From: a virus | Taxonomy: Duplodnaviria > Heunggongvirae > Uroviricota > Caudoviricetes | Direction: 5' to 3' (one strand) | DNA: 64,000 nt | IMG/VR virus record: IMGVR_UViG_2913147268_000005 | Shown here: positions 4,701 to 20,999 of the stretch, piece by piece | Position numbering within the stretch: the first letter of the stretch is position 1 | Layout of the letters: each line of letters opens with the position of its first letter | Notes under the pieces: model-generated | What the model was told of the DNA's origin: nothing | Seen by the model: only the letters and a program-made list of their open reading frames with translations | Database searches by the model: none | Position numbers and translations under genes: made by a program

Positions 4701-5334
4701 CCGTGCATTTTTGGTAATATCCGTCAGCGTCAGCGCATTCAGCCCCAGTGTCAGACTGTCTTTTATGACCTGGAATGCCGGGCCAGCCACTCCATTCAGT
4801 TTCGGAGTAACCGTGGCACTGCCGGCGGTGAACACCAGCTCCAGCGTCTGCCAGTCGTTACTGTAATTCCCGAACTCGCCCAACTTTGTGTTTCCTGCTT
4901 TCTTGTGATGCATCAGATTCAGTTTGCCGTCTGTGGTCTGGGTGAAGAACGACATCAGGAACGGGTTACCAGTCCCGGTCATCGCCACGACGTCAGGTAA
5001 CGCTACATCGGTATACAGATAAATTCCCAGACCGAACTGATTGTTGGTCAGTGCGCCTGACAGTCGAAACTTACAGCTCAGTCTGCCACCCCGTGTCAGC
5101 AGGGAGACTGCGTCATCCACCGGGCGCGTCAGGGACCAGGCTTTATTGCTCTGCTTGGTGATCTTAAATACACCATCTGACAACTGAATTCCGCCATTCT
5201 TAATGCTCCAGCCCTGCGCAGCAGCATCTCCGGCTGTCGGCAACAGGGAGATTGTGCGTACGGATGCATCTTCAGACGGCCCCGATGGCGTGTCGCCGCC
5301 GGGCGAGGGTTTGATTTCCGGTGCCTTACCACTA
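4677..5334 (-). pseudogene. nanS: nanS-p 3' fragment (C-terminal domain), inverted relative to the 5' fragment
   Basis: Minus-strand ORF begins SGKAPEIKPSPGGDTPSGP (same motif that ends the 22243 copy) and matches the 41309-41950 copy. Confidence 0.7.
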
Positions 5335-5388
5335 GTCATCGGGCATTATCTGAACATAAAACACTATCAATAAGTTGGAGTCATTACC
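5335..5388 (-). mobile_element. IS1 terminal stub (54 bp)
   Basis: Reverse complement reads GGTAATGACTCCAACTTATTGATAGTGTTTTATGTTCAGATAATGCCCGATGAC, the IS1 terminus as recalled; no further IS1 sequence. Confidence 0.8.
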
Positions 5389-5393
5389 CAAAA

Positions 5394-5804
5394 ATGCACG
5401 CAAAAGAAGAAGGTATCATCAGAGCACTGAAAGAAATTTCAAAGACAGAAAACGAAGTAGCGAAAAAAGCCATAGCAAATAATCATATGGACGTCGCAAC
5501 CCACACACTGATAGTCGCAAGAGTCACGGCAGAAGCAGCCGAAATTATCGCAAAACAGGATGCTGAACTGGCGGTTCTCAGAACACAACCAGTCACCGGA
5601 CTGGATTTGTCTAACACCGGACGCCTTATTTACACAATTGGCTCGGAGCTACAGCGATACACCATTATCGCCGGGTTACAGGATAAATACCTGATCACTC
5701 CTCACCCCATAAGGGAATCAGAAATTCTGACAAATCTCCGCCTGATAGAGCGCTCTCAAGTCGCATTCATTGATGACGCACAGTGCACCGTATTTAACGC
5801 ATAG
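5394..5804 (+). CDS. hypothetical protein, possibly 5'-truncated by the IS1 stub
   Basis: 136-aa ORF starting 3 nt after the IS1 end; frame stays open upstream through the stub. Confidence 0.4.
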   Translation: MHAKEEGIIRALKEISKTENEVAKKAIANNHMDVATHTLIVARVTAEAAEIIAKQDAELAVLRTQPVTGLDLSNTGRLIYTIGSELQRYTIIAGLQDKYLITPHPIRESEILTNLRLIERSQVAFIDDAQCTVFNA

Positions 5805-5827
5805 AGTTACTGGACAAAGGGGGCGCA

Positions 5828-6031
5828 ATGGCAATTAAGCATTTTCCCGTCGTTCGCTTTACCTCCAGAGGGCGCGAATACGAGGTCGACGAACGCCTGA
5901 TTACCACTATCGACAAACATCGTTCGGAAAAGGATGCACACCACATCTACCTCACTGACGGCACTTACTTCTGCGCCACTAATGTGGCGCGGGTAAACCT
6001 TATCCGACAGGTACAGGAGCCACGCAGATGA
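5828..6031 (+). CDS. hypothetical small early protein
   Basis: 67-aa ORF; stop overlaps the next start. Confidence 0.4.
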   Translation: MAIKHFPVVRFTSRGREYEVDERLITTIDKHRSEKDAHHIYLTDGTYFCATNVARVNLIRQVQEPRR

Positions 6032-6294
6032 CCATTCTGGACTACATCGCTACTCATCCGGGGTGTAGCGGCGGAGAGATCGCCGCAGCACTGAATACTC
6101 CAACCACAGCCATTAATGCTGAGTTACGCCAACTTTGGCGCGGCGGCTTAGTCATCAGAACAAACCGCAGCACAGGTGGTCGCGCTCGCAAAACTGGAGG
6201 CCAGGCTTCTTACCACGTAAACCCGATGCCGTTCGGGTGTAGCAATCCACTTACTCACATGTTTAACCAGCTACTGAAGGAAGCCAGAACATGA
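6028..6294 (+). CDS. putative winged-helix DNA-binding protein
   Basis: 88-aa ORF MTILDYIATHPGCSGGEIAAALNTPTTAINAELRQLWRGGLV, HTH-like; translationally coupled to neighbours. Confidence 0.45.
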   Translation: MTILDYIATHPGCSGGEIAAALNTPTTAINAELRQLWRGGLVIRTNRSTGGRARKTGGQASYHVNPMPFGCSNPLTHMFNQLLKEART

Positions 6295-6590
6295 GCACCA
6301 TCAACCACCAGAAGCTACGCGAACTGGCATTTGCCCTGCAACGAATGGCAACACCTCAAAAATTACTGGCATTTCGCGCAATGCTCTCGCCGTCTGCTGC
6401 GCTGGCATTGCTGGATGAGCTGGAGCACGCCAGAACCACGGCTCCTGCCATTCGCCTGACGCTCCATCATGAAATCGCTGATTTCTGCGCGACATTGGAG
6501 GTGCCAGGCGAACCGGAAACGCCGGAAGCAATACAGCAAGAGCTGCTGCAACGTATTGACAAGGTTTTTGATTTTTTTCTGAACCAGTAA
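6291..6590 (+). CDS. hypothetical early protein
   Basis: 99-aa ORF, coupled start/stop overlap. Confidence 0.4.
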   Translation: MSTINHQKLRELAFALQRMATPQKLLAFRAMLSPSAALALLDELEHARTTAPAIRLTLHHEIADFCATLEVPGEPETPEAIQQELLQRIDKVFDFFLNQ

Positions 6591-6711
6591 GAAACCAGAG
6601 CATGCACACACAAAAAAACCGCTTGCCATGCCGCAATCAGTCAGGTTACATTTCCGCTGCACCTCATAAAACGGGTGCCGGGTTTCGCAGCCTGCTGACT
6701 ACACAAGCGCA

Positions 6712-6734
6712 CAACCGCGCCAGCGGTTTTTTTG
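6712..6734 (+). terminator. rho-independent terminator
   Basis: ACCGCGCCAGCGGT hairpin followed by TTTTTTT. Confidence 0.55.
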
Positions 6735-6912
6735 TGCGTACTGTATTGCCACGTTTTTTTCGCGTCAGAATTATGGCGGGGCGTACGGGGCCGACTTCGG
6801 TCGGGCCGGGTTCTTGTGTAGCCGGTACTGCGAACCTCGTACGTCTCGCCACCCACAGTTTCGCAGCTCTGGATGGTGAGTTTTCACAACTTACTACACA
6901 AGGGGCCACACC

Positions 6913-7143
6913 ATGGCAAACCGCAAACAGCACCGCGCTATCGCGGAGCGTCGTCACATCCAGACTGAAATCAACCGCAGACTTTCCCGCGCATCACGCG
7001 TCGCGCAAATCATGCACATCAATATGCTGCATGAGCGCAGCCACGCACTATCAAACATTTATTCCGCCTCTGTTTTCAGCTATCTGGCGGATGATCTGCA
7101 CGAGCTTCAACAGCTCATCCAGCAGCAAAACAAACTCCATTAA
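6913..7143 (+). CDS. hypothetical basic protein
   Basis: 76-aa ORF with AAGGGG SD 8 nt upstream. Confidence 0.4.
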   Translation: MANRKQHRAIAERRHIQTEINRRLSRASRVAQIMHINMLHERSHALSNIYSASVFSYLADDLHELQQLIQQQNKLH

Positions 7144-7215
7144 TTCCTGTTCCGGGCCTTTCCTGCACCTTGCGGCGGGAGGCCTTCGCACATCTGTAAC
7201 AAGAGGATTGCCGCA

Positions 7216-7581
7216 ATGATTCTCGCCAACGACTTTCTTGAATACCTGCTCAATACAGAACGTGATCTTGCCGCTCGCGTGCGTGATCGTTATGACATGT
7301 ACCTGAAATCCCTGCCTGTACCGCAGCTCGCTGACGGAAAGATTGTTATTGATGGTCGCTACATGATTGACAGCCACGAGGGAAATTACAGGCTTTACCG
7401 CATTGAAGGTGGCACCCCGTCCGTTATTGGCATTTACCAGCGCCCATCCTCTGCAATCGTCGATGTGATTGCCGACAGCATCCGCATCACACATCGCCAT
7501 GCCGACACAGAAGACACCGTGCTGGAAATTCAGCGGCTGGCTACAGTCTGCCGCGACACCCTGAATGGCATGACGAAGTAA
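7216..7581 (+). CDS. hypothetical protein upstream of replicase
   Basis: 121-aa ORF immediately 5' of gpA-like gene. Confidence 0.4.
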   Translation: MILANDFLEYLLNTERDLAARVRDRYDMYLKSLPVPQLADGKIVIDGRYMIDSHEGNYRLYRIEGGTPSVIGIYQRPSSAIVDVIADSIRITHRHADTEDTVLEIQRLATVCRDTLNGMTK

Positions 7582-7587
7582 ATCACT

Positions 7588-10410
7588 ATGACGGCAGAGT
7601 ACCTCAGGGACTGGCAACAACCGCGCCACGCAGTGGGGCGTGAAGGAACGGGGATCCCCGCTCCTGAATCCGCGCTTTCCTCCTGGCTGGATGCCTACCG
7701 GGCAGAGAACGAGCGCCGCCAGGAAATGGCTGATGCGGCGTTCTCAGCCACGCCGCTGGGCAACCTGATTAATAAAAGCCTGGACGCACAGGAAAAACAG
7801 GACAAAACCATCACACTGGCAGGAGACGCCAGAAAACAGGCACGTGGCGCGGTGGATGAAGCCATGGCCTCGCTGCGCCTGCTGCCGTCCTATCTGCGCG
7901 ATCCGCTTATTCGCCACCTCTCCTTCCTGCGCAAAAAACAGGAAGCCGATCGCCGGAAAGGCAAAAAGAGCTGGCAGGCGGAACGCTATGCACGCGGAAC
8001 CCTGCGCAAAATATTCGAACGTCTGGATAGCACTGACGGACGCTGGCTGACACCGGGTTATCGCTCCCTTGCCGGACGCGAACGCCTGGACGATTTGCTT
8101 TACCTGCCGCAGCTCAACAAACACCAGATACAGACGCTGGCCACCATGACGGCGGCGATGTTCAGCAGCACCTTCGAAAAACTCTGCGATGGCTTTGGCG
8201 CGACCGATGGCGAGCTGACCATGGATGTAACCCTGAAGGCGTATCAGATGCTGGCCCGCATGGCGTTACACCTGCACGCCATGCCTCCACATTATGACGC
8301 ACTGACAACAGACAAAGACCGGAGGAACGAACCGGACACGGAGCTGCTGCCGGGCGCAATCCTTCGCCTGACCTGTGCGGAATGGTGGAAACGCAAACTG
8401 TGGCTGTTACGTTGCGAGTGGAGAGAAGAACAACTCCGCGCCGCCTGTCTGGTTTCCAGAAAAACATCACCCTATCTGAGCCAGGACGCGTTAAGCGAGT
8501 TTCGCGCACAGCGCGAGAAAACACGCGATTTCCTGAAAAGTTTCATGCTGGAAAATGAAGACGGGTTCACGATTGATCTCGAGACAGTGTATTACGCGGG
8601 AGTAAGTAACCCGGTTCACCGTAAGGCAGAAATGATGGCCACCATGAAGGGACTGGAACTTCTGGCCGAAGCCCGTGGCGACAAAGCGGTGTTTCTGACT
8701 GTCACCTGCCCGTCAAAATACCACGCCACAACGGAGAACGGTCATCCGAATCCCAAATGGAACGGGGCCACAATGCGCGACTCCAGCGATTACCTGGTTA
8801 ACACGTTTTTTGCGGCGGTCCGCAAAAAACTGAACCGCGACGGCCTGCGCTGGTATGGCATCCGCACGGTGGAGCCTCATCATGACGGCACCGTGCACTG
8901 GCATATGATGGTCTTTGCACATCCGGAAGAAATCGACACCATTGTGTCCCATACCCGCGATATTGCCATTCAGGAAGACCGCCACGAGCTGGGCAATGAT
9001 ATTACTCCGCGCTTTAAGGTGGAGTATGTCGACGGCTCAAAAGGCACGCCAACCAGCTACATCGCCACCTACATCGGAAAGAACCTGGACAGCCGCGCCG
9101 TGGATGGCATCGACCCGAAAACGGGCAAGCCACGCGTGGACCACGAAACCGGAAAATCAATGGCCGAGAGCGTGGAGCGCGCCATCGGCTGGGCGCGCCT
9201 TCACCGGGTCCGTCAGTTCCAGTTCTTTGGCATCCCCTCCCGTCAGGTGTGGCGTGAACTGCGCCGCCTTGCCAGCCAGATGGCACGCAATCCGGAAGGC
9301 CCGCAACGGCTGAAAGATGATGCAATGGATGCGGTACTCGCTGCCGCCGATGCCGGGTGTTTTGCCACCTACATTGAAAAACAGGGTGGCGTGCTTGTTC
9401 CACGCAAGGACTACCTGATTCGCACCGCCTACGACCTCGCAGATGAGCTGAACGATTACGGCGAACAGAGCGTACAGATTTACGGGATCTGGTCACCACT
9501 CATCGGGGAATCCTCCCGTGTGTGCACGCATCCGGATAACTGGAAGCTGGTAAGACGTAAACCGGAAGCGGAAGACAGCGCCCGCGAAAATGGTTTTGAC
9601 CTTCAGGGCGGCCCTGCCGCCCCTTGGACTCGTGGCAATAACTGTCCCCGTGTACAGGAAACGGACAACAACGGGACAGAACAGCCGGAAGAACGGCCAG
9701 CACCGTGGCCGCAGCTCCCTGACGGCGTTGAAGTGAACGAATGGATGCGCTCACTGAAACGACACGAACGCCGGGCGCTGATGCGTTCGCTTCGTGACAA
9801 ACAGGCAAAAAACAGCAGCGATGAAATGCAGAGCTGGACACAGAGCCGCAAACAGCAGCGGCCTTTGCCTGATAACCACGAATTACTCGCTAAAGAATGG
9901 CGGGAGTCTGCTGAATCTCTCGGCCTGCATATCGGTGAACAACAGATGCAGCACCTGTTACGGGGCGGCAGTCTGTACGTTGACGGCAGCATCATTGCAC
10001 CGCAGGGATTTGAAATTGTACGCAAACCGGATACCCGCCCGGACAGCCGAATCACGCAGCTCTGGCAGCGCCTGAGCCGTAATCATGGCGTAAGCAGCAC
10101 GGAGATCCGCCATAACCCGGTCGCCAGCTATCTGGCACAGCTGGGGGCATCAGACCCTGAAGCCGCCGCACGCCTGGCATCCACACTTCAGCAGGGCCAG
10201 AACACCATGAAAACACCCGTTACCGTGCTTTCTGACATGCTGCGCGCCATCCGCGACGCAGAGCACGCACAGAGAATCAGTGAAACCACTGAACGCGCCA
10301 GCCGCAAAGCAGACCTGCTGCGGGGTGGCCTGACCAGTGGAAACAAAAAACAGACAGAAACGGGACTTACGAATCCCGTAAATGAGCAAAAAACGCGCAG
10401 CGATATATGA
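7588..10410 (+). CDS. P2 gpA-family rolling-circle replication initiation endonuclease
   Basis: 940-aa ORF with HUH-type motif GTVHWHMMVF and P2 A-like central region; position before the A-to-Q hotspot. Confidence 0.8.
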   Translation: MTAEYLRDWQQPRHAVGREGTGIPAPESALSSWLDAYRAENERRQEMADAAFSATPLGNLINKSLDAQEKQDKTITLAGDARKQARGAVDEAMASLRLLPSYLRDPLIRHLSFLRKKQEADRRKGKKSWQAERYARGTLRKIFERLDSTDGRWLTPGYRSLAGRERLDDLLYLPQLNKHQIQTLATMTAAMFSSTFEKLCDGFGATDGELTMDVTLKAYQMLARMALHLHAMPPHYDALTTDKDRRNEPDTELLPGAILRLTCAEWWKRKLWLLRCEWREEQLRAACLVSRKTSPYLSQDALSEFRAQREKTRDFLKSFMLENEDGFTIDLETVYYAGVSNPVHRKAEMMATMKGLELLAEARGDKAVFLTVTCPSKYHATTENGHPNPKWNGATMRDSSDYLVNTFFAAVRKKLNRDGLRWYGIRTVEPHHDGTVHWHMMVFAHPEEIDTIVSHTRDIAIQEDRHELGNDITPRFKVEYVDGSKGTPTSYIATYIGKNLDSRAVDGIDPKTGKPRVDHETGKSMAESVERAIGWARLHRVRQFQFFGIPSRQVWRELRRLASQMARNPEGPQRLKDDAMDAVLAAADAGCFATYIEKQGGVLVPRKDYLIRTAYDLADELNDYGEQSVQIYGIWSPLIGESSRVCTHPDNWKLVRRKPEAEDSARENGFDLQGGPAAPWTRGNNCPRVQETDNNGTEQPEERPAPWPQLPDGVEVNEWMRSLKRHERRALMRSLRDKQAKNSSDEMQSWTQSRKQQRPLPDNHELLAKEWRESAESLGLHIGEQQMQHLLRGGSLYVDGSIIAPQGFEIVRKPDTRPDSRITQLWQRLSRNHGVSSTEIRHNPVASYLAQLGASDPEAAARLASTLQQGQNTMKTPVTVLSDMLRAIRDAEHAQRISETTERASRKADLLRGGLTSGNKKQTETGLTNPVNEQKTRSDI

Positions 10411-10458
10411 AGCGCGCACAAAACAGGCAAAAACGGGATTTCAGAATCCCGTAAACGA
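10358..10458. promoter_or_regulatory. two 28-bp palindrome-containing direct repeats (parC-like centromere/operator)
   Basis: AAACGGGACTTACGAATCCCGTAAATGA at 10358 and AAACGGGATTTCAGAATCCCGTAAACGA at 10431, each with the ACGGGA...TCCCGT inverted repeat, just upstream of parM. Confidence 0.55.
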
Positions 10459-10486
10459 TTAATTAATCAACATAAGGAAAAGCGAC

Positions 10487-11446
10487 ATGAAAATTTGTAT
10501 CGACGACGGCTCCACCAACATCAAGCTGGCATGGACTGAGAATGGCGAACGCCGCAACGCCATCAGCCCGAACAGCTTCAAGTCGGAATGGTCTGCGCCG
10601 TTCGGTGGCATGCAGCCCGCGAACTACATGCTTGATGGCGTGCGCTATGGTTTTGATCCGGTTAGCGATCGCTTTGTCCAGACGACCGACACGCAATACC
10701 AGTACAGCGATGTGAATGTAATCGCCATTCATCACGCGCTGGTCAAATCAGGCATCACGCCACAGGAGGTGGATGTGGTTGTCACCCTGCCACTGAGCGA
10801 GTATTTCGACACAAACGCACAGCCGGACATGGCCAACATCAACCGCAAAAAAGCGAACGTTATGCGCCCGGTGGAATACCAGAACGGCGAAGCATTCACT
10901 ATCCGTAACGTGCGGGTTATGCCTGAATCCATTCCGGCTGGCTTTAAAGCACTGGCTGACATGAGTCCGTTTGAATCCCTGCTGATTGTGGATTTAGGCG
11001 GAACCACGCTGGATGTGGCAAAGGTTCAAGGGCAACTGGCAGGTATCAGCCAGGTGTTTTGCGATCCACACGTAGGCGTTTCCCTGATGGCCGATGCCGT
11101 ACTGTCGGTGATGGCCACTAACGGTATGCGCACCAGTCACCACATCGCCAATACCATTATCGAACATCGCCATGATGAAGCCTGGCTGCGCCAGCACATC
11201 CACAATGACGCGCATTACGCCAGCCTGATGGCGGTTATTCGTGAAAAGGAAGAAACACTGAAACAACGCGTGATCCGCGCGCTGGCGGTTTTTTCGGGTT
11301 ACGGGCGGGTGATGGTTGTCGGTGGAGGGGCGGAGATTGTGGCACCCGCTATCCGCGAAGTCTGCGGAGTTAATGCGACTTTCATCGCGGACGGGGTGCC
11401 ACAGTTTGCTCTGGTTAATGGGCTGTACGCAATGGACAAGGAGTAA
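10487..11446 (+). CDS. parM: actin-like plasmid segregation ATPase ParM/StbA
   Basis: N-terminus MKICIDDGSTNIKLAW...ISPNSFK and overall match to R1 ParM as recalled. Confidence 0.85.
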   Translation: MKICIDDGSTNIKLAWTENGERRNAISPNSFKSEWSAPFGGMQPANYMLDGVRYGFDPVSDRFVQTTDTQYQYSDVNVIAIHHALVKSGITPQEVDVVVTLPLSEYFDTNAQPDMANINRKKANVMRPVEYQNGEAFTIRNVRVMPESIPAGFKALADMSPFESLLIVDLGGTTLDVAKVQGQLAGISQVFCDPHVGVSLMADAVLSVMATNGMRTSHHIANTIIEHRHDEAWLRQHIHNDAHYASLMAVIREKEETLKQRVIRALAVFSGYGRVMVVGGGAEIVAPAIREVCGVNATFIADGVPQFALVNGLYAMDKE

Positions 11447-11450
11447 ACCA

Positions 11451-11765
11451 ATGACGACACCAACCAGACGGATAAGTTTCTATCTGAAGCCCGCCGCCGT
11501 CAAGAGTGAACAGGAGGCGTGCAATTACCTCGATAGCCTGCCAGCCTCCGAACGCAGCCGCGCGCAACGCGCGGCCTTTCTGGCTGGGCTAGCGCTCATA
11601 AAGCGCAACCCAGCATTTGCCTACTGGATGGCCGAATGGCCAGAGGACAACCTCCCCTTCAATACCGTTAGCATCAAGGAAACATACCAGGATAATCAGC
11701 CTAGCGGAGTTGAATGCAATTTTTATAAAATAAAAAAGAATATTCAGACCTTATTCCCAGAATAA
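11451..11765 (+). CDS. parR: ParR-like centromere-binding adaptor
   Basis: ISFYLKPAAVKSEQEACNYLDSLPASERSRAQRAAFLAGLAL parallels R1 ParR IAFKLNPDV...DSIPQGERSRLNRAALTAGLAL. Confidence 0.7.
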   Translation: MTTPTRRISFYLKPAAVKSEQEACNYLDSLPASERSRAQRAAFLAGLALIKRNPAFAYWMAEWPEDNLPFNTVSIKETYQDNQPSGVECNFYKIKKNIQTLFPE

Positions 11766-11848
11766 TCTGATAATTGTATGTGAACTAATAAAATACAGAC
11801 CAACACATCATTCTGGCACCCTTGCTAACAGGGTGCCAATGTTTCAAA

Positions 11849-12691
11849 TCATGATGAAATTGCCGAAGTTTTTTTATCGTGCTGAAGTACCGCAAATGCC
11901 ATTAAAACCTCAAGAGAATAGCGGCGATAATACTTAACAAAACCATAATAAAATACTCGGGATGCAGCAATACAAAACAAGAGAAGAAAACAAAAAGGTA
12001 ACAGTCTGATATTTATATCTATTAAAAAGGATAGAAGGAGCAGGAACATAAGCAACCAGACTGAAGCGAGAAAAACAAATGTAATGTTTCTACAAAAACC
12101 ATACAAAGCAACATAGTTTTGCATTTTCACCTGATGATTTTTAGAATGTTCATACACATAATGATAAGCAAGGCGAAAAAGATCGCCCCTCAAGCCCTTA
12201 CGTCGATATAGCGTAGATACAGAAAAAACATTTATATAACCATCTCGTATTTGCGGCCAAAAGACTTTAATAAGTATAGAATGCAGTGTGGTTTTATGAT
12301 GTTCTGCTTTATCAAAAGCTGATACAGGAAATAAAAAAACTCCACGAATAAAATTAACTATACTGAACTTAGTATTATGTCGTTTTATTTTCAGGGAGCT
12401 TCTTTTAGAAAACAGATAAATTGAAGGATACCCAAGTTTACTGTTCATGTATTTTTCAATTAAACAGGATGATAGAATAGATATGAAGTGACCTGAAATA
12501 TATGATAGAACGATTAATACCACATATATAAATACACTTATTATTTCTTTATATTTCAGGATATGGTTAAGAATACCTTCTATATAAACAGGGTTAATTT
12601 CAATAGAAAACAAAAAAAGGATAAACAGGAATAACCCACCTGGAATTAGATAGCCCAAAAAGTCATAAAATGAAAACGGATTCTGTGTCAC
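11849..12691 (-). CDS. hypothetical polytopic membrane protein (hotspot cargo gene B)
   Basis: 280-aa ORF, GTG start preceded by AGGGGGAA SD; at least 5 hydrophobic TM-like segments; AT-rich. Confidence 0.7.
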   Translation of the reverse strand: MTQNPFSFYDFLGYLIPGGLFLFILFLFSIEINPVYIEGILNHILKYKEIISVFIYVVLIVLSYISGHFISILSSCLIEKYMNSKLGYPSIYLFSKRSSLKIKRHNTKFSIVNFIRGVFLFPVSAFDKAEHHKTTLHSILIKVFWPQIRDGYINVFSVSTLYRRKGLRGDLFRLAYHYVYEHSKNHQVKMQNYVALYGFCRNITFVFLASVWLLMFLLLLSFLIDINIRLLPFCFLLLFCIAASRVFYYGFVKYYRRYSLEVLMAFAVLQHDKKTSAISS

Positions 12692-12730
12692 ACTTCCCCC
12701 TGTGTTACTTGTAAATTAAAGGGTAAAACA

Positions 12731-13228
12731 TTATTTGTTTTTCCGTAAAGGATTAGCTTTCCATCTTCTTACTAACCATTCGAATTCTTGATATGTAGTA
12801 TCCGAATTAATGCTTTCTCTGATTGCTTTAATTAATGGCTCGGCAATATCATATGTCTCTACAACTGTTGTGTAAGATGTTCTTTTTATCATTTTTTCAT
12901 CATAAATACCTTCACGAATACTTACAGCAACTCGCTCGTAAAAATTTAAAATATATTGAAATTTTCGACGCTCGGCCATTTCTTCATCTGTTATTATGCA
13001 ACCATCACAAGGAAAAACATAAGAACGAAATGATTTGCCTGAACGATGCACTTGTTTCAGGGTATGCAATGACTCTATATATTGCATATCTTGCCGACTC
13101 TCAAAAAGAAAGTTGGCCGTTTGAGTTTTTTTTGCGGTACGCACATTGTAGATAATGGTTCCAATGGCAACCAAAACGCCAAGCAGAACAATAGCATTGC
13201 TGATGATTTGTAGTGTTATTGGGTTCAT
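12731..13228 (-). CDS. hypothetical membrane-anchored protein (hotspot cargo gene A)
   Basis: 165-aa ORF; N-terminal TM helix ITLQIISNAIVLLGVLVAIGTIIY then soluble domain; 39 bp upstream of gene B; AT-rich. Confidence 0.7.
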   Translation of the reverse strand: MNPITLQIISNAIVLLGVLVAIGTIIYNVRTAKKTQTANFLFESRQDMQYIESLHTLKQVHRSGKSFRSYVFPCDGCIITDEEMAERRKFQYILNFYERVAVSIREGIYDEKMIKRTSYTTVVETYDIAEPLIKAIRESINSDTTYQEFEWLVRRWKANPLRKNK

Positions 13229-13245
13229 CCTATTTCATCCATAAA

Positions 13246-13273
13246 AAAGGCGGGGAGCAAATCCCCGCCTCAT
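13246..13273 (-). terminator. rho-independent terminator just upstream of gene A
   Basis: Minus-strand hairpin AGGCGGGGA-tttgc-TCCCCGCCT followed by TTTTTT; preceded by an 11-codon ORF MKKMYDEFDGF. Confidence 0.55.
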
Positions 13274-13425
13274 TAGAGGTCAACGTAGCTTAGAAACCAT
13301 CAAATTCATCATACATTTTTTTCATATCAACCCCCTCATAGAAATCATAACCACGTTTTGTGGTTTTTGTGACGTATAAACTACATCAAAGGCAAGCCAC
13401 GGTCAAATATATAGGCATGCTTACC

Positions 13426-13452
13426 TGCACAAAAGTGCACAAATTTGCACAA
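13426..13452. repeat. three direct TGCACAA repeats at ~10-11 bp spacing (candidate operator)
   Basis: TGCACAAAAGTGCACAAATTTGCACAA; a fourth TGCACAAAAAAA near 13520. Confidence 0.5.
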
Positions 13453-13823
13453 TTTTTTTGAACGACTTTTTACCCTTCCGGCCCGCATGGCGGCTGGATC
13501 CGTCAAGGATCCGTGCGTGCACAAAAAAACGCGCTTTTTCTGCGCGCAGGTGACGGGGGAACAGCCCGCGTTTCAGGGGGTAAATAGCATTCCCTGAACG
13601 ATGTCGCAGAGACACAACAGAATGGCCATATTTCTCACGCTGAGCATGAAAAAGGCGTGAGGGCTTTTGATTTGATGGGGTGAAAGGTAAGGCCGTCAAA
13701 ATCGCACTGAGGCAGCGAGAACATGCAGTCAACGCGGTGGAATTGCGTAAGAGTCTGACCGTCGATGGTGGCGATAAACTGGAAGGCGTCGTGAAATTAT
13801 CTGATTGATACAGGAGCTGGAGA

Positions 13824-13852
13824 GCCGGGGCATAAATTTTTTATGCCCCGGC
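13824..13852. terminator. perfect palindrome, probable bidirectional terminator
   Basis: GCCGGGGCATAAA-TTT-TTTATGCCCCGGC. Confidence 0.5.
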
Positions 13853-13951
13853 GAAGCAGCAGACAAGCGAAGCGCGTCAGCGATACGGCACCTTGCCGAC
13901 CATACTTCATAAGTGCAAAATACGAGCAAAGAAATCAATGGAGGCTGTCTT

Positions 13952-14476
13952 ATGGTCATTAATTACAAGCAGTTAAGAGAAAAACGGGAGCAGGTAAAGG
14001 AGAGCTTTCGCCGCAATGAAGATCTGACCCCGCTTGTACGCCTTGCCCAGGGCATTGTTGATGCTTATGAAATCTCGCTGGAGCTGCCATCACAGACCTG
14101 GACAGATAGCGACGGTAATCGCCAGCATTACGTTTCATGCGGACTGGAAGCAGCCGAAGGATTTCGCAGAATGCCTTTATCCCAGATCCCTGCCGCTACC
14201 CCCAAAGCACGGGGCAGCAATGATGAGCGAAAACTGACTTTTAGTATTGAAACGGTGGTTGACGACACACCTGGCGAAGTCGCGTTCGTGCACACTCCTG
14301 TTTCGATCGCAATGTATAACGATGAAATACAGGTTCGCGTTAATAATAATATCGTGCCACTTAAAGAAGGTAATTCACCCTACACCACCGTTTGTGAAGC
14401 CATTCAATATTACGTTCTCTCTGAAATTGATAATCTCAAGCCTGACGGCACCCAGAAAATGGTTCAACTCTGGTAA
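13952..14476 (+). CDS. hypothetical protein (hotspot cargo)
   Basis: 174-aa ORF from ATG with GGAGG SD 7 nt upstream; no homology recognised. Confidence 0.55.
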   Translation: MVINYKQLREKREQVKESFRRNEDLTPLVRLAQGIVDAYEISLELPSQTWTDSDGNRQHYVSCGLEAAEGFRRMPLSQIPAATPKARGSNDERKLTFSIETVVDDTPGEVAFVHTPVSIAMYNDEIQVRVNNNIVPLKEGNSPYTTVCEAIQYYVLSEIDNLKPDGTQKMVQLW

Positions 14477-14477
14477 A

Positions 14478-14512
14478 AAGGACAGCCCCATCACGGGGCT
14501 GTTTTTTCATCA
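14478..14512. terminator. bidirectional terminator between convergent genes
   Basis: CAGCCCCATCACGGGGCTG hairpin flanked by A-run and T-run. Confidence 0.6.
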
Positions 14513-15537
14513 AGAAGAGCATAAGAGTTAAAACGGATCACCTCTTCGCCAAGCCAGTCATTGATGTGCTTCATAGCCTCCATAACGGGCATCAGCTCGT
14601 TAATTGCGTAAACCCGCGCTGCCTTCTCCACATCGCCAAACGCACTTTTTTCGCCCGGCATCGCCCCCATCAGTTGCGGCGGAACGCGGTGCGCAGCCAG
14701 CACATCATCACGGGATGCCGCCTTAACATTCATGAATTCATCTTTTGCGGTGATCTGCTGGAACGGCAAAATTTGCACCCCCTCTTTGCCCCCGTTGGGC
14801 GCATGAATGAGCACGTTTTTAAACGCACCACCACCACGTGCCCCCTGTAGCGTTTCTTTCAGGGAGTCCATGCTTTCGCGGTTTACCTGCGCTGCACCGA
14901 TGTAGATGATGCACCCGGCGTGGGATCCGTTGTCGTAGTACAGTTTTCTGAACATGTCCGCCGAATGAGAAAGGCTGGCCGAGAGTAATGCGCCAAGATA
15001 TTCCGGCATGCCGTAGATTTCCTGGTTAATATCCGGATTCATCAGGTGGCACACTTTGCCAGGACGAAACTGAAACGCGTCCTTGCCATCCTGCACATAC
15101 CACCATGATTCAAGATCGCTTCCGCGTCGCATGTATTTCGCCAGGGCGTGCCGTAATTTAAGCGGTTCGCCGAGCATATTGCTTCGAAGCTCAAGGAATG
15201 CGTTACCGAACACAAACCAGTCCAGCGCCAGCGCCGAGAAATCCTGCCGGGAAAGCAGCGGGTGCGGGATGTAGCAACCGAGTAATACATTGCGCTTAAA
15301 GTAAAGCGCAGACTGATGCCAGGACGTTTGCCGGGCTGCTCTTGCCAGACCGTACCAGTCCACCGGGGTTTCATACCACCGCCCGTTATCAGCACAGTAC
15401 ATATTGTCCAGCAGGTCATGCCCGGTCAGGCGATAAGGACCATCAAATGTGAATGCACTGAGCGATGATTCTTTCCTGAGCGCATCAGCGAGATCAATGC
15501 GTGAACTCATGCGCACTTTTTTATTTTTTCTGCTCAT
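14491..15537 (-). CDS. P2 gpQ-like portal protein
   Basis: 348-aa ORF; P2-type Q-P (minus) / O-N-M-L (plus) divergent arrangement. Confidence 0.75.
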   Translation of the reverse strand: MSRKNKKVRMSSRIDLADALRKESSLSAFTFDGPYRLTGHDLLDNMYCADNGRWYETPVDWYGLARAARQTSWHQSALYFKRNVLLGCYIPHPLLSRQDFSALALDWFVFGNAFLELRSNMLGEPLKLRHALAKYMRRGSDLESWWYVQDGKDAFQFRPGKVCHLMNPDINQEIYGMPEYLGALLSASLSHSADMFRKLYYDNGSHAGCIIYIGAAQVNRESMDSLKETLQGARGGGAFKNVLIHAPNGGKEGVQILPFQQITAKDEFMNVKAASRDDVLAAHRVPPQLMGAMPGEKSAFGDVEKAARVYAINELMPVMEAMKHINDWLGEEVIRFNSYALLDEKTAP

Positions 15538-17288
15538 CAGAACTCCATAACCATGAAACGCTCGTTTTCTCCTTCGCCGCCAATTGGTTCGTTAATGACA
15601 GCAAGCATGGTTGCCCACGCAAGGTCGCCGTGGCTGATCCCCCTCGCGCGGTCCGTTTCGTAAGTGATAAAGCCGCCCGGTGTTTTCACCTTACGCACGG
15701 CGTTAAAGGCCGCGACCAGCTCGCGTTCGGCGCGATCGTATTCCCACCGCCCGGCACGCATTATTTGCAGCATTTTCAGTACCAGCGACCGTTTTGATGA
15801 CAGCGTGAAGGTGTACGGAATAGCAGCAGGGAAAAACCGCTTCACTATCTGATAAACAGCCTCCCCGTTCCCGCCCGTCACATCAATGCCGATGTGTTCC
15901 ACGTTGTAGCGACACGTGAACTCTTCAATGACTCTGGCCTGTTCTTCAAACTCCAGCCCCTGAACGCGTCGCGTCTCCACCGTTCGAAAACGGCCGCCAG
16001 GAACAGCCGGAGGAACCACCACGGACACAGCGCCGCTGTCGCCGTTGCCACTACTGCCGTTTGCGTCATACCCAATCCATACCGGACGATTCCCCATCGG
16101 GCGGGGAGCAAAAGGTTTCCAGTCTTTCCAGTCGTCGTATCCGTCAACACCGCAGCCAATCAGGATATTCAGGTTAAATGCCGATTCCCCTTCGCGGACA
16201 AACTCACACATATAGAGATTGAGGAACTCGTCTTCGGTGTTTTCATCACGAATTTCGTCGATATCGGTGTGTTTCCAGCCGTGATTAACCACATCTTCCA
16301 GCGTGACAATTTGCCGCCACGTCCGGTCAGGGCAGATAAGCCCATTATGCAGCGTTTTCCAGTCCACAGAAAAACGCTGGCGTTTATGCGAGGCCTTTTT
16401 CTCGTTCCAGCGGTCGCCGTTCCAGTAGGCGTATGCCTCGTGCGTTTCGGTGGATGGCGTGGAGAAGTAGGTGCGCCGCAGTCCGCTGAGGGTTGCCATA
16501 GCGCCAGCCACCTTGCGCAGTTCAGCAAAGCGACTGACCCAGAAAAATTCATCAAAATAAAAATTGCCCGTATAGGACTGTGCCGACGCAGCAGAAGTGC
16601 CGAGAAAATGCAGCTCTGCGCCGTTGGAGAGGATGATTTTATCGCCCCCTTTCAGCTCCACATCAACTTCAGCCGCGGCCTTCTGAATAATGCTTTTAAA
16701 CTGGAACGCCTGACGACGCGACGCAGACAAAAAAATCTGGTTACGCTGGTAAGGTTGCGCCACATCGTCACGCAGCGCCATCAGCAGTGCTTCCTGTGCA
16801 AAATACCAGGTCGCCCCAATCTGTCGGGATTTCAGGATCATCCTGTTACGTATCCCGGCTTCCCTGCAAAGGGTCAGGGAGTCAAACCAGCCCCGCTGAT
16901 GCCACTCCAGCCTGCTGATGATTTTTTCCCGCAGTGCGGCAATCTGTTCCGGCGTGAAATGATTTTTGAGTTTTTTCGCCCGGCCTTTCTTTCCTGCGGC
17001 CATCACATCCGGCTGGCCATCATGCAGCTTTTTAAGCTGCCGGGTCAGCAGGTCTATTTCCTTAAAGTCACCGCCTGTTTTATTCTGTTTTTCAGTAAGC
17101 TGGATGAGGCGCGCATCGATGGACTGCGTGACACGCTGCACGGGTGGCGTTTCATCCCACTGGTCACGTTTTTTCCACGCATAAATCGTGTTCGGGTTTA
17201 TTCCCATCAGACGTGATATTTCTGCGGGCGGATAACCCTGCCAGTAAAGTTGCCGCGCACGCTGGCGCACAAAAGCGTCCTGAATCAT
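15537..17288 (-). CDS. P2 gpP-like terminase ATPase (large) subunit
   Basis: 583-aa ORF, N-terminus MIQDAFVRQRARQLYWQGYPPAEISRLMGINPNTIYAWKKR, size and position as P2 P. Confidence 0.8.
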   Translation of the reverse strand: MIQDAFVRQRARQLYWQGYPPAEISRLMGINPNTIYAWKKRDQWDETPPVQRVTQSIDARLIQLTEKQNKTGGDFKEIDLLTRQLKKLHDGQPDVMAAGKKGRAKKLKNHFTPEQIAALREKIISRLEWHQRGWFDSLTLCREAGIRNRMILKSRQIGATWYFAQEALLMALRDDVAQPYQRNQIFLSASRRQAFQFKSIIQKAAAEVDVELKGGDKIILSNGAELHFLGTSAASAQSYTGNFYFDEFFWVSRFAELRKVAGAMATLSGLRRTYFSTPSTETHEAYAYWNGDRWNEKKASHKRQRFSVDWKTLHNGLICPDRTWRQIVTLEDVVNHGWKHTDIDEIRDENTEDEFLNLYMCEFVREGESAFNLNILIGCGVDGYDDWKDWKPFAPRPMGNRPVWIGYDANGSSGNGDSGAVSVVVPPAVPGGRFRTVETRRVQGLEFEEQARVIEEFTCRYNVEHIGIDVTGGNGEAVYQIVKRFFPAAIPYTFTLSSKRSLVLKMLQIMRAGRWEYDRAERELVAAFNAVRKVKTPGGFITYETDRARGISHGDLAWATMLAVINEPIGGEGENERFMVMEF

Positions 17289-17442
17289 TGCTCCCCCTGA
17301 GTAATTACAGGAAGATTACCCGCGCGCGAAACTGTTCTCCTTAACCCTCTGTTCTGACTGTTTTCTTACAACAAAAGCCCTTTGTATCAGCCTGTTACGC
17401 TTTGCCATCATGACTGAAGAACCAGTCAGAGGGGCAAAAACT

Positions 17443-18279
17443 ATGGCTAATGAAAAAAAGACATCCCGCAAAAAGTTTCGCGTGGCTGTCTCCGGATCAA
17501 CTGTTGATGGCCGTGAAATCAGTCCGGTGCATCTGCGTGAAGCCGCCGAGAACTTCAACCCGGATGTTTACGCTGCCCGCGTGAACGTTGAGCACTATCT
17601 CTCGCCATGTCCGTCAAGCGAATTTTCCGCAATGGGCGATGTCACCGCACTGAGTACGGAAGACATTACGGAAGGTCCGCTGGCCGGACGTACTGCGCTG
17701 TATGCAGAAATCGAACCGACCGAGCGCATGAAGCAGCTTGTCGCTGACGGCAAGAAAATCTATTCCAGTATCGAACTGCACCCGCAGTTCTCCGTTAACG
17801 GGCGCGCCTATCTGGTCGGGCTGGCGATGACCGACACCCCGGCAAGCCTGGGCACTGAGCGCCTGAAATTCACGGCACAGCAACGTCAGGCGGTGATGAC
17901 GTTCAACAGTATCCAGGGTGAAGCACCGCTTATCTCCGAAGCCATCGAGTCTGAAATCATCGAAATGGCAGAACAACGCCAGGAAGAAGGCACCCAGTGG
18001 TTTAACCGCGTAATGGGGATTATTGGTCGTGGCCGCAAAGCGGATGACGCCAGTTTCTCCCGAATTCAGGAAGCGGTGGAAGGCGTTGCAACGTCACAGG
18101 CCGACATTATCGACCGTTTTAATGTGCTGGAAACCCGCCATCAGCAGGACCGCCAGAAAATCACGTCACTGACCACAGAGCTGACAGCATTGAAGGAAAA
18201 ACTGCGCACGCAGGACGGCGATCCGCAGAACCGCTTCACCGCAACGGGCGCAGCCTCCGACCAGCTGGCTGACTTCTGA
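17443..18279 (+). CDS. P2 gpO-like capsid scaffolding protein
   Basis: Start MANEKKTSRKKFRVAVSGSTVDGREIS parallels P2 O MAKKVSKFFRIGVEGDTCDGRVIS as recalled. Confidence 0.75.
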   Translation: MANEKKTSRKKFRVAVSGSTVDGREISPVHLREAAENFNPDVYAARVNVEHYLSPCPSSEFSAMGDVTALSTEDITEGPLAGRTALYAEIEPTERMKQLVADGKKIYSSIELHPQFSVNGRAYLVGLAMTDTPASLGTERLKFTAQQRQAVMTFNSIQGEAPLISEAIESEIIEMAEQRQEEGTQWFNRVMGIIGRGRKADDASFSRIQEAVEGVATSQADIIDRFNVLETRHQQDRQKITSLTTELTALKEKLRTQDGDPQNRFTATGAASDQLADF

Positions 18280-18302
18280 TAAGACAAAGGAGCAAATTTT
18301 TT

Positions 18303-19355
18303 ATGAATCTGGTGATGTCAGATATTACCCGCAACAAGCTGGGTTGCTATATGGCGCAGCAGGCGTCGCTTAACAATATCCCGGTATCTGCACTGGTATC
18401 GCGATTTACCGTGGAACCCGCGGTGCAGCAGCGTTTTGAAAACGCCTCAAAGGAAAGTACCGAATTTACGAAAAGAATTAACGTGATCGGCGTGACCGAC
18501 CAGAAAGGCGAAAAAATCCTCCTGGACACCACCGGGCCAATTGCGCGCACGAATAGCAGTTATGACGGCATCAAACGCCGTAACCCGAATAACGTGATCG
18601 ATATGAAGTCTCGTCAGTACCAGTGCGAACAGGTGAACTACGATACCTTTATTTCGTACCCACAGCTTGATACCTGGGCGGCCCACAGCGATTTTCAGTC
18701 CCGTATCAGTACACAGATCGCCCGGCAGGTAGCGCTTGATCGCATCATGATTGGCTTTAACGGCACATCCCACGCCTACGAGTCTGATTTTCACACCAAC
18801 AAGCTGCTTCAGGACGTTAACGTGGGCTGGCTGGAGCACATCAGAACCGATGCCAGCGAGCGCGTAATGAATGACGTGACGCTGACCTCCCGCAACATGG
18901 ACAACACTGTGGCGCACGCGGGTAAGTATGCGAATGCCGATGCTCTGGTACAGGATGCGCGCTCATCCCTGCTGGATGAATGGCACAAGGAAGCTGACGA
19001 CCTCGCGGTGATTATGGGGCGCAACCTGTTTAACTCGCTGCGTCTGCCCGTGCTGAACAGCATCAGCGGCCAGAATCCCAATGCGGAATTACTTGCCGGG
19101 CAGCTCATCCTGTCATCGCGCACCATTGGCGGGCTGGGCGTGTTCCTTGCGCCGTTCTTCCCGGATGCAACGATGCTTATCACCTCGTTCAACAACCTGT
19201 CGATTTACTGGCAGAAAGGTTCAATGCGTCGCCTGATGAAAGACGAGCCGGAATACAACCGCATCGCCACCTACCAGTCCATCAATGACGCTTATGTCGT
19301 TGAAGACTATGGCAAGTGCGCGATGGTCACTGGCCTGAAGTTCGCCGACAGCTAA
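18303..19355 (+). CDS. P2 gpN-like major capsid protein
   Basis: 350-aa ORF with AAGGAG SD; shared blocks KFTVEP, DVNVGWL, DALVQDA, FFPDATMLIT, NLSIYW, YVVEDYG with P2 N. Confidence 0.8.
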   Translation: MNLVMSDITRNKLGCYMAQQASLNNIPVSALVSRFTVEPAVQQRFENASKESTEFTKRINVIGVTDQKGEKILLDTTGPIARTNSSYDGIKRRNPNNVIDMKSRQYQCEQVNYDTFISYPQLDTWAAHSDFQSRISTQIARQVALDRIMIGFNGTSHAYESDFHTNKLLQDVNVGWLEHIRTDASERVMNDVTLTSRNMDNTVAHAGKYANADALVQDARSSLLDEWHKEADDLAVIMGRNLFNSLRLPVLNSISGQNPNAELLAGQLILSSRTIGGLGVFLAPFFPDATMLITSFNNLSIYWQKGSMRRLMKDEPEYNRIATYQSINDAYVVEDYGKCAMVTGLKFADS

Positions 19356-19400
19356 TCAACTCACGGCGGGCATCATGCCCGCCTGTAACGGAGAGAAAAA

Positions 19401-20997: not shown

Positions 20998-20999
20998 CA

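What the first reader, a model, noticed from the sequence alone, without database searches (positions are those of the whole stretch)
10358..11765. ParMRC-type plasmid partition module inside a P2-like phage genome
parM and a ParR homologue follow gpA directly, preceded by two 28-bp palindrome-bearing direct repeats typical of a parC centromere. Actin-type segregation is not a feature of canonical P2. With no integrase in the window, this suggests the element is maintained episomally as a phage-plasmid, or has captured a partition cassette as hotspot cargo.
Basis: partly seen in the sequence, partly recalled or inferred. Interest (0 to 1): 0.6.

Follow-up and report, generated by a model that had tools for sequence, protein, structure and literature searches.

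The report
Plasmid-type partition cassette in prophage
A complete, intact actin-type (ParM/ParR) DNA-segregation cassette sits directly after the replication gene of a P2-like (phage P88-type) prophage remnant, but it is already annotated and noted in the literature, and these phages are found integrated in the chromosome, not as plasmids.

Summary
Window 10487-11446 encodes a ParM (47% identical to R1 ParM, nucleotide-binding motifs intact). Window 11451-11765 encodes a ParR/StbB adaptor. Two 42-nt direct repeats, each with a 20-bp palindrome, lie 73 bp apart upstream of parM.

The episomal reading is not supported. Window 5334-23489 is 100% identical to a P88-like (Xuanwuvirus) prophage integrated beside dmsA in E. 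coli ST131, where integrase, C and cox are present. The window lacks them because this copy is rearranged: a truncated IS1 end and lambdoid DNA flank it. The module occurs in 1304 of 5426 complete E. coli genomes, at 1442 chromosomal and 2 plasmid places.

ParM is under purifying selection (dN/dS about 0.08). ParM relatives of 54-62% identity sit between gpA and the portal gene of P2-like prophages in Hafnia, Plesiomonas, Serratia and Enterobacter. The paired GGG-N10-CCC sites, 72-73 bp apart, recur in Hafnia and Plesiomonas.

Rousset et al. 2022 already noted that about a quarter of P2-like phages carry a putative partition system, with the same plasmid speculation. The function is untested. 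I favour a transient role on excised or replicating circular phage DNA. Novelty is low; the conserved two-site candidate centromere is the small new element.

The parts
5334..23489 (+). Block of a P88-like (Xuanwuvirus) P2-like prophage: early genes, gpA, parMR, cargo, Q, P, O, N, M, L, X and lysis genes. int/C/cox and the tail genes are missing here.
   Evidence: 100% identical over 18,156 bp to the ST131 chromosomal prophage (L003 12001-30156). 96.5-97.7% identical to phage P88.
5334..5388 (.). Truncated IS1 end forming the left junction of the prophage block
   Evidence: Sequence read. It corresponds to the end of the IS1A element annotated in L003.
7588..10410 (+). gpA replication endonuclease (940 aa). 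Its last 17 codons contain repeat 1.
   Evidence: Pfam Phage_GPA 4.9e-131
10344..10385 (.). Direct repeat 1 (42 nt) with palindrome ACGGGACT-TACG-AATCCCGT at 10360-10379; distal candidate ParR site
   Evidence: The arms are conserved and the spacer is variable among relatives. The same geometry is found in Hafnia and Plesiomonas.
10417..10458 (.). Direct repeat 2 (42 nt) with perfect 8-4-8 palindrome ACGGGATT-TCAG-AATCCCGT at 10433-10452, ending 34 nt before the parM ATG; proximal candidate ParR site
   Evidence: These two are the only copies in the complete P88 genome.
10487..11446 (+). parM, actin-like segregation ATPase (319 aa)
   Evidence: dN/dS is about 0.08.
11451..11765 (+). parR, an RHH (ribbon-helix-helix) adaptor of the StbB family (104 aa), with a conserved C-terminal KKNxxxLFPE tail
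11816..11838 (.). Hairpin GGCACCCT-N7-AGGGTGCC between convergent parR and the cargo genes; a possible end of the parMR transcript
   Evidence: Read directly from the sequence. The terminator scan did not call it.
11849..13228 (-). Variable low-GC cargo of the gpA-gpQ hotspot (280-aa membrane protein and a DUF4760 protein); not part of the partition cassette
   Evidence: GC 0.31. Pfam DUF4760 1.8e-34. Weak Csx27-like hit. The content after parR differs in P88, STEC711, TUM9757 and Chuche.

Best explanation
This is a bona fide type II (ParMRC-like) DNA-segregation cassette: ParM actin-like ATPase, ParR ribbon-helix-helix adaptor, and two palindromic ParR-site candidates upstream. It is a long-standing accessory of the P88-like (Xuanwuvirus) branch of P2-like temperate phages. 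These phages lysogenise by integration.

The cassette lies at the end of the early (cox-B-A) transcription unit, with no recognisable promoter or plus-strand terminator between gpA and parM. It is therefore most likely expressed together with gpA. On that reading it acts on the extrachromosomal circular phage genome only transiently, after infection or induction. ParR bound to the two palindromes would couple phage circles to growing ParM filaments that move or space them during gpA-driven replication, analogous to AlpC/AlpA of the integrated CGP3 prophage.

Shown here: the identity and intactness of ParM and ParR, purifying selection, conserved synteny, the conserved paired sites, and chromosomal residence. 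Inferred: ParR binding to the palindromes, co-transcription with gpA, and the lytic or transitional role.

The copy in this window sits in a rearranged, defective prophage (no int/C/cox, no P2 tail genes) and probably does nothing for a phage here.
For: Components:
- ParM domain hits and 47% identity to R1 ParM, with DDGSTNIK, DLGGTTLD and GGGAE kept.
- ParR matches PF10784. It has an N-terminal RRISFYLKP strand and a C-terminal tail aligned with the C-termini of plasmid and D6 ParRs.

Selection: parM dN/dS is about 0.08 over 28 pairs. The reading frames are intact and the protein clusters hold thousands of members.

Lineage conservation:
- ParM relatives at 54-62% identity lie between gpA and the portal gene of P2-like prophages in Hafnia, Plesiomonas (with int, C and cox), Serratia and Enterobacter.
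- Everything at 53% identity or below is on plasmids, an ICE or an integrated plasmid.

Cis sites:
- The palindrome occurs only twice in the window and only twice in the complete P88 genome.
- Among E. coli, Salmonella and E. albertii relatives the 8-bp arms are essentially invariant, while the 4-nt spacers vary.
- Hafnia and Plesiomonas have two GGG-N10-CCC sites 72-73 bp apart at -128/-55 and -131/-59 from the parM ATG, against -125/-52 here. Fewer than 1 in 10,000 shuffles give such a pair.

Integration.

Expression: no plus-strand promoter-like or terminator-like site lies between gpA and parM.

Precedent: AlpC/AlpA of the integrated prophage CGP3 is needed for efficient viral DNA replication (PMC4446434, PMC5539076).
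Against: - There are no expression or binding data. The consensus promoter scan is crude, so a ParR-autoregulated promoter between or after the palindromes (as in R1 parC) cannot be excluded.
- The site architecture is two palindromes. The ~11-bp iteron arrays seen upstream of parM in an IncF plasmid and in D6 are absent, so a canonical segrosome may not form.
- The GGG-N10-CCC motif was defined after looking at the sequences.
- A related P2-like phage (pENTAS02) lacks the cassette, so it is dispensable for this replication mode.
- What a plasmid-pushing spindle would gain a phage during a short lytic cycle is speculative.
- Rousset et al. 2022 prefer the plasmid-maintenance idea.
Confidence: 0.45

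Rival explanations
1. Facultative phage-plasmid. The cassette lets the P88-like prophage persist as a low-copy extrachromosomal circle, for example when attB is absent or occupied, with ParMRC ensuring inheritance. 2022.
For: The cassette is a complete plasmid-type partition system. The same phages also carry a hok/gef-type gene, the other stability determinant of plasmid R1. One 34.5-kb circular record of such a phage is filed as a plasmid. The plasmid-prophage D6 uses a related StbA/ParM at 48% identity.
Against: 1442 of 1444 E. coli occurrences are chromosomal. An integrase, C and cox are present in P88, the ST131 copy, TUM9757, Plesiomonas and even the 'plasmid' record. No plasmid-type replication or copy-control gene is annotated in P88, only the rolling-circle gpA. 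From established P2 biology (my knowledge), gpA belongs to the C-repressed early operon, so a repressed genome would not replicate and partition would be pointless. P2-like genomes without parMR also turn up as circular 'plasmid' records. P88-like records are about 5 of 18 Escherichia P2-like hits in PLSDB, close to their roughly one-quarter share overall.
Confidence: 0.2
2. Selfish or competitive cargo. The cassette was taken from a plasmid into the gpA-gpQ hotspot. It persists by hitch-hiking, or by interfering (through incompatibility or ParR silencing) with plasmids or superinfecting relatives that carry the same centromere. It would have no role in the phage's own DNA handling.
For: The position is in the known variable hotspot. 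The nearest non-phage relatives are plasmid ParMs at about 50% identity. The cassette is absent from a related phage and sits two ORFs away from gpA in Enterobacter.
Against: Purifying selection on parM is strong. The clade is phage-specific and has diverged to 54-62% identity while keeping its place and its paired sites. There is no hit to defence-system models. Neighbouring hotspot cargo turns over while parMR stays.
Confidence: 0.15
3. The two palindromes are not a centromere. They would be RNA hairpins (an attenuator, a processing or stability element, or minus-strand terminators), or an operator for another protein, and the true ParR sites lie elsewhere or are lost.
For: On the minus strand both palindromes score as terminator-like (hairpin plus T-run). 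The RNA of 10340-10490 folds unusually stably, z = -4.8. The architecture differs from the iteron arrays of an IncF plasmid and D6.
Against: In Plesiomonas and Hafnia only GGG/CCC plus a few flanking bases are complementary. No stable hairpin or T-run is conserved there, yet the half-site geometry, the 72-73-bp spacing and the distance to parM are. In Hafnia the pair stays next to parM although another ORF separates it from gpA. The ParR strand RR(I/V)SFYL is shared by exactly these lineages. There is no Rfam match. No other copy exists in the P88 genome.
Confidence: 0.15

Closest known systems
ParMRC (parA/stb locus) of plasmids R1/NR1
   Same: Gene order: cis site, then parM, then parR. ParM is 47% identical with all nucleotide-binding motifs. 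ParR has an N-terminal RHH strand and a C-terminal basic-N-x3-L tail. The repeats lie directly upstream of parM.
   Different: It resides in an integrating P2-like phage and follows a rolling-circle initiator gene. The cis site is two 20-bp palindromes 73 bp apart, whereas R1 parC has two sets of five 11-bp iterons flanking a promoter (R1 architecture from my knowledge; iteron arrays seen in an IncF plasmid). No promoter is recognisable. ParR is shorter (104 aa).
Escherichia phage P88 and other Xuanwuvirus (Peduoviridae) genomes
   Same: The same cassette at 96-100% DNA identity, in the same place after gpA, already annotated as ParM and partition protein.
   Different: The window's copy belongs to a rearranged, defective prophage. 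Its parR is a different allele (56% identical to the P88 allele), with only the N-terminal 18 residues, the helix region and the C-terminal tail kept.
Remark in Rousset et al. 2022 (PMC9122126) on the gpA-gpQ hotspot of P2-like phages
   Same: [quoted passage not shown] My count is 1304 of 5426 E. coli genomes.
   Different: They give no analysis of the cassette, its cis sites or its replicon location. My data argue against stable plasmid residence.
StbA-type partition module of plasmid-prophage D6
   Same: A phage-borne ParM (48% identical) followed by a ParR. The record's own note cites the P88 StbA protein.
   Different: D6 is a P1-like circular plasmid prophage and has TCTCA iterons at 11-bp spacing upstream of parM.
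AlpC/AlpA/alpS of Corynebacterium glutamicum prophage CGP3
   Same: An actin-like protein, a DNA-binding adaptor and cis sites, encoded by an integrated prophage and acting on the excised replicating viral DNA (PMC4446434, PMC5539076).
   Different: The host and phage are unrelated. Sequence relatedness of AlpC to this ParM was not tested here. This is a functional analogy only.

Membership tests
Type II (ParMRC) partition system | Actin-fold ParM ATPase with intact nucleotide-binding motifs | tested here: met
   StbA_N 2.7e-82 and ParM C-terminal domain 1.1e-68. 1.1e-92 to R1 ParM structures, with DDGSTNIK, DLGGTTLD and GGGAE aligned.
Type II (ParMRC) partition system | Small ribbon-helix-helix adaptor ParR encoded immediately downstream of parM | tested here: met
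   PF10784 7.7e-29 over residues 6-75. The N-terminus aligns with pB171 ParR 2jd3, E = 0.012. The gap between parM and parR is 4 nt.
Type II (ParMRC) partition system | ParR C-terminal tail that binds ParM | tested here: inconclusive
Binding itself is not testable here.
Type II (ParMRC) partition system | Centromere parC: an array of ParR-binding repeats upstream of parM, overlapping its promoter | tested here: inconclusive
   Two significant, conserved palindrome-bearing repeats lie upstream. There are only two sites, they are palindromic and not iterons (compare), and no promoter was detected.
Type II (ParMRC) partition system | Stabilises a low-copy extrachromosomal replicon | not testable with these tools
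   This needs a plasmid-stability assay. The location is chromosomal in 1442 of 1444 cases.
Phage-plasmid (extrachromosomal prophage) | The prophage resides as a separate replicon in lysogens | tested here: not met
   1442 chromosomal against 2 plasmid places in 5426 complete E. coli genomes. Flanking chromosomal genes dmsABC and btuC are seen.
Phage-plasmid (extrachromosomal prophage) | Plasmid-type replication or copy-control module, usually no integrase | tested here: not met
   The P88 annotation shows gpA as the only replication gene, plus an integrase. An integrase is also present in ST131, TUM9757, Plesiomonas and pZ1323PEC0009-2.
Xuanwuvirus / P88-like P2-like phage | Collinear nucleotide similarity to P88 across the early, replication and head/lysis modules | tested here: met
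   97.7% over 4.9 kb and 96.5% over 7.7 kb to NC_026014. The hits in the phage collection are assigned to Xuanwuvirus or Peduoviridae.
P2 gpA-gpQ hotspot cargo | Located between replication gene A and portal gene Q, with content varying among related phages | tested here: met
   The position is met. parMR itself is constant within P88-like phages while the genes after parR vary. It is absent in pENTAS02. The hotspot is defined in PMC9122126.

The most novel reading that the evidence does not exclude
An integrating, rolling-circle-replicating P2-like phage lineage found in about a quarter of E. coli genomes uses a plasmid-derived actin spindle with an unusual two-palindrome centromere. It would use it to position or separate its excised circular genomes during lytic growth, or alternatively to allow a conditional plasmid state. 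That would be a Gram-negative counterpart of the CGP3 AlpAC system, in a genetically tractable phage.
Probability: 0.4. Interest if true: 0.55.

Novelty: already known. Interest (0 to 1): 0.27.

Why it matters
The cassette is very common: it occurs in about 24% of complete E. coli genomes, including ST131, O157:H7, UTI89 and E2348/69-type strains. It is under strong purifying selection, yet its role in an integrating phage has not been tested in anything I could find. If it positions replicating phage DNA, it would extend cytoskeleton-driven viral DNA handling to ordinary small temperate coliphages. If it supports a conditional plasmid state, P2-like phages would have to be reconsidered as facultative phage-plasmids. 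For this particular window it is an ordinary, already annotated feature in a decayed prophage.

Tried and rejected
Distant relatives came instead from the protein search plus contig look-ups.
2. Literature searches for Xuanwuvirus/ParM, 'phage P88' + partition and Peduoviridae + ParM found nothing relevant. Two candidate papers mentioned 'ParM' only through author or species names.
3. Defence-system reading: PADLOC gave no hit for ParM or ParR. Rejected.
4. Known RNA family over 10000-12000: none.
5. Promoter upstream of parM: none by the consensus scan. I could not find a convincing -35/-10 by eye. The conserved ATTAATCAA-N-AAGGA just before the ATG in three lineages is unexplained.
6. An 11-bp phased AAAC(G/A) sub-repeat reading of the region was considered by eye. 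It is not supported well enough to claim.
7. I tried to find the source replicon of the whole window. No plasmid or complete E. coli genome holds it contiguously. The window is a mosaic.
8. One search used a pattern one base too long and found nothing. It was corrected.
9. Serratia and Enterobacter do not share the two-site architecture. They have a long composite palindrome with GGGAAC...GTTCCC outer arms and a second, different palindrome, so the 'conserved parC' claim is limited to the E. coli, Hafnia and Plesiomonas lineages.


Full report
**1. What is at the coordinates**

ORF 10487-11446(+) encodes a 319-aa protein. It matches both Pfam ParM domains: StbA_N at 2.7e-82 and the ParM C-terminal domain at 1.1e-68. 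It also matches the solved R1 ParM structures at 1.1e-92. It is 47% identical to R1 ParM over its whole length, and the phosphate-1 (DDGSTNIK), phosphate-2 (DLGGTTLD) and adenosine (GGGAE) motifs are intact.

Four bases downstream, 11451-11765(+) encodes a 104-aa protein. It matches Plasmid_stab_B/StbB (PF10784, 7.7e-29), and its N-terminus aligns with pB171 ParR (2jd3). The preceding ORF, 7588-10410, is a 940-aa gpA replication endonuclease (Phage_GPA 4.9e-131).

Upstream of parM are two direct repeats of 42 nt (10344-10385 and 10417-10458), 83% identical and 73 bp apart. Each holds an 8-4-8 palindrome, ACGGGAYT-N4-AATCCCGT. The 24-nt core occurs exactly twice in the 64-kb window with up to 3 mismatches allowed, against 0.00 expected from shuffles. 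The first repeat lies inside the last 17 codons of gpA.

**2. What element this is**

Nucleotide searches place the cassette in Escherichia phage P88 and the other Xuanwuvirus (Peduoviridae) genomes at 96-100% identity. There it is already annotated as ParM and a partition protein.

Window 5334-23489 is 100% identical over 18,156 bp to a prophage integrated next to dmsA in E. coli ST131 chromosomes. In that prophage a tyrosine integrase, the C repressor and Cox lie upstream. P88 itself has int, C and cox. Strain TUM9757 carries a related prophage integrated next to btuC.

The window has no homologue of these three proteins because this copy is rearranged:
- The block begins at a truncated IS1 end of about 55 bp (5334-5388), abutting a minus-strand DUF6645/nanS-p gene fragment.
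- To the left is lambdoid DNA: tail I/J fragments, a methylase and tRNA-Met/Arg.
- To the right the block breaks inside another nanS-p-like gene and continues into lambdoid tail and head genes on the minus strand.

The P2 tail genes are absent. The element here is a defective remnant, and 'no integrase in the window' says nothing about the lifestyle of the phage.

**3. Chromosomal or episomal**

In 5426 complete E. coli genomes the cassette is present in 1304, at 1442 places on chromosomes and 2 on plasmids.

In PLSDB it appears in seven records:
- Several records are very large (228 kb to 1.4 Mb).
- One is the IncC plasmid pC-Ec2-KPC, which has captured the whole phage genome between IS26 copies.
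- One is a 34.5-kb circle that is simply a complete phage genome with its integrase.

A complete P2-like phage genome without any parMR (pENTAS02, with integrase) is also filed as a plasmid. Such records therefore do not indicate partition-dependent maintenance. P88-type records are about 5 of the 18 Escherichia P2-like terminase hits in PLSDB. That is close to their roughly one-quarter share of P2-like phages overall, so they show no enrichment among 'plasmids'. The phage-plasmid reading is not supported, although a conditional episomal state cannot be excluded from genome records alone.

**4. Is the cassette functional and how old is it**

Pairwise Nei-Gojobori estimates for parM among eight P88-like copies give a mean dN/dS of 0.077 (28 pairs, dS up to 0.22). 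That indicates strong purifying selection.

In the phage collection this ParM clade is confined to Xuanwuvirus (95% identity or more). The next hit is the plasmid-prophage D6 at 48%. Plasmid ParMs reach 53% at most.

A search of 5.8 billion proteins found intermediates at 54-62% identity. Their contigs show that all four examined lie between gpA and the portal gene Q of P2-like prophages:
- Hafnia
- Plesiomonas, where int, C and cox are on the same contig
- Serratia
- Enterobacter

Homologues at 49-50% identity are in an ICE and an integrated plasmid. The cassette therefore forms a phage-specific clade that has kept its position while diverging substantially. It is not a recent pick-up. It is still dispensable, because pENTAS02 lacks it and in Enterobacter two ORFs separate it from gpA. 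The genes after parR differ between P88, the window/ST131, STEC711, TUM9757 and Chuche, so the variable part of the hotspot starts after parR.

**5. ParR**

The window allele is only 56% identical to the P88 allele. The first 18 residues (including the predicted DNA-reading strand RRISFYLKP), the following helix region and the C-terminal NI(Q/R)xLFPE are conserved.

To my knowledge the extreme C-terminus is the part of R1 ParR that binds ParM. This supports an intact adaptor, but it is an inference.

**6. The candidate centromere**

Among ten E. coli, E. albertii, Salmonella and phage copies the substitutions in the 196 bp upstream of parM concentrate in the two 4-nt spacers. The 8-bp arms are essentially invariant: one change in the window's repeat 1 and one in P88.

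In the complete P88 genome the palindrome occurs only at these two places, even with 3 mismatches allowed.

The architecture recurs in diverged lineages:
- Plesiomonas has two 26-nt direct repeats 72 bp apart, the first inside the end of gpA.
- Hafnia has two related elements 73 bp apart.

All six copies share cGGGa-N6-aAnCCC-N2-AAanG, with GGG and CCC 13 bp apart centre to centre. The sites lie at -125/-52 (E. coli), -131/-59 (Plesiomonas) and -128/-55 (Hafnia) from the parM ATG. In 20,000 shuffles per region such a pair arose at a frequency of 5e-5 or less. The relaxed motif was defined post hoc, so this is supportive rather than formal.

In Hafnia the pair stays with parM although an extra ORF separates it from gpA. 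RNA hairpins and minus-strand T-runs are not conserved in these lineages, which argues for protein half-sites over RNA structure. These three lineages also share the ParR strand RR(I/V)SFYL.

Serratia and Enterobacter have a different layout: a long composite palindrome whose outer arms are GGGAAC/GTTCCC, plus a second palindrome.

Compared with classical parC, this is an unusual two-site arrangement. Arrays with ~11-bp spacing were seen upstream of parM in an IncF plasmid and in D6. ParR binding to the palindromes remains untested.

**7. How it probably works**

No sigma-70-like promoter and no plus-strand terminator was detected between gpA and parM. A hairpin follows parR (11816-11838). The default inference is that parMR is the distal part of the early operon and is made together with gpA, that is, after infection or induction and not in the repressed lysogen.

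From established P2 biology (my knowledge), gpA is C-repressed and drives rolling-circle replication to monomeric circles. A repressed, non-replicating circle would gain nothing from a partition system. That makes stable plasmid maintenance mechanistically awkward.

I therefore favour a transient role: ParR bound to the two palindromes links phage circles to ParM filaments, which move or space them during replication or before integration. The precedent is AlpC/AlpA of the integrated Corynebacterium prophage CGP3, which is needed for efficient viral DNA replication (PMC4446434, PMC5539076). My confidence in this role is moderate (about 0.45). The identity of the components is near certain. The rivals are a conditional plasmid state, selfish or competitive cargo, and non-centromere palindromes; they are given with their tests in the Rival explanations section.

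**8. Novelty**

The cassette is annotated by PGAP in thousands of genomes and in the P88 RefSeq record. The D6 record cites 'phage P88 StbA protein'.

What this analysis adds:
- The replicon census argues against plasmid residence.
- There is evidence for a phage-specific ParM clade with conserved placement.
- The two-palindrome candidate centromere has a conserved geometry across three lineages.

The function remains experimentally open, which keeps a modest interest.

Noticed in passing
window 4212-5388, 22243-23706, 41309-41950: Three nanS-p-like / DUF1737-SASA / DUF6645 gene copies or fragments. Two of them sit exactly at the ends of the P88-like block, and a ~55-bp truncated IS1 end lies at 5334-5388. 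They look like the recombination or transposition junctions that scrambled the P88-like and lambdoid prophages.
   Followed up: partly
window 42503-52188: An IS-rich stretch (IS66, IS21 and IS110 family pieces, and an rve-type transposase) encloses psiB-psiA at 43911-45064. These are genes of the F-like plasmid leading region, embedded between prophage segments. No complete E. coli genome or plasmid in the collections holds the window contiguously.
   Followed up: partly
window 11849-13228 (minus strand): Low-GC (0.31) two-gene cargo right after parR: a 280-aa multi-pass membrane protein with a weak Csx27-like PADLOC hit (1.1e-5), and a DUF4760 protein. Given its place in the gpA-gpQ hotspot it is a candidate anti-phage module.
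   Followed up: no
L022 (NZ_MK439959.1, IncC plasmid pC-Ec2-KPC) 39,000-70,000 of the record: A conjugative IncC KPC plasmid carries the whole ST131-type P88-like phage genome between IS26 copies. int is adjacent to hok/ogr/D, which is an attP-type junction. This suggests that an excised circular phage genome was captured by IS26.
   Followed up: no
L001 34928-35068; L004 1291-1431; L022 41919-42059: P88-like phages also carry a hok/gef-family toxin gene near ogr. They therefore hold homologues of both classical stability loci of plasmid R1 (parMRC and hok/sok). The window's truncated copy lacks this region.
   Followed up: no
L021 (NC_015969.1, Enterobacter soli pENTAS02): A 32.6-kb record filed as a plasmid is a complete P2-like phage genome with an integrase and no parMR. 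Several 33-37-kb Arsenophonus and Zymomonas 'plasmids' also carry P2-type terminases.
   Followed up: partly
L006 (Vagococcus sp. WN89Y contig NZ_JBQPOM010000071.1): A 226-kb contig of a Firmicute assembly holds a gpA-parM region with ParM 97% identical to the E. coli-type protein. This is most likely contamination of that assembly.
   Followed up: no
window 7588-10410; L008 4946-7956: gpA is 940 aa here, with the Pfam GPA domain covering only residues 179-503. In Hafnia gpA is 835 aa and is followed by a separate 167-aa ORF before parM. The long C-terminal part of gpA has no domain assignment, and its last codons overlap the distal palindrome.
   Followed up: no
window 10457-10486; L010 6440-6468; L008 7975-8000: A short conserved string ATTAATCAA-N2-5-(A)TAAGGA immediately upstream of the parM ATG is shared by the E. 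coli, Plesiomonas and Hafnia lineages. It includes the Shine-Dalgarno sequence. The AT-rich part could be a -10 element, but it was not called by the promoter scan.
   Followed up: no
window 6913-7143: A 76-aa 'derepression protein' (PF25738, 6.3e-8) lies upstream of gpA. It is also present in P88 and Hafnia, and hints that these phages are inducible through an antirepressor.
   Followed up: no
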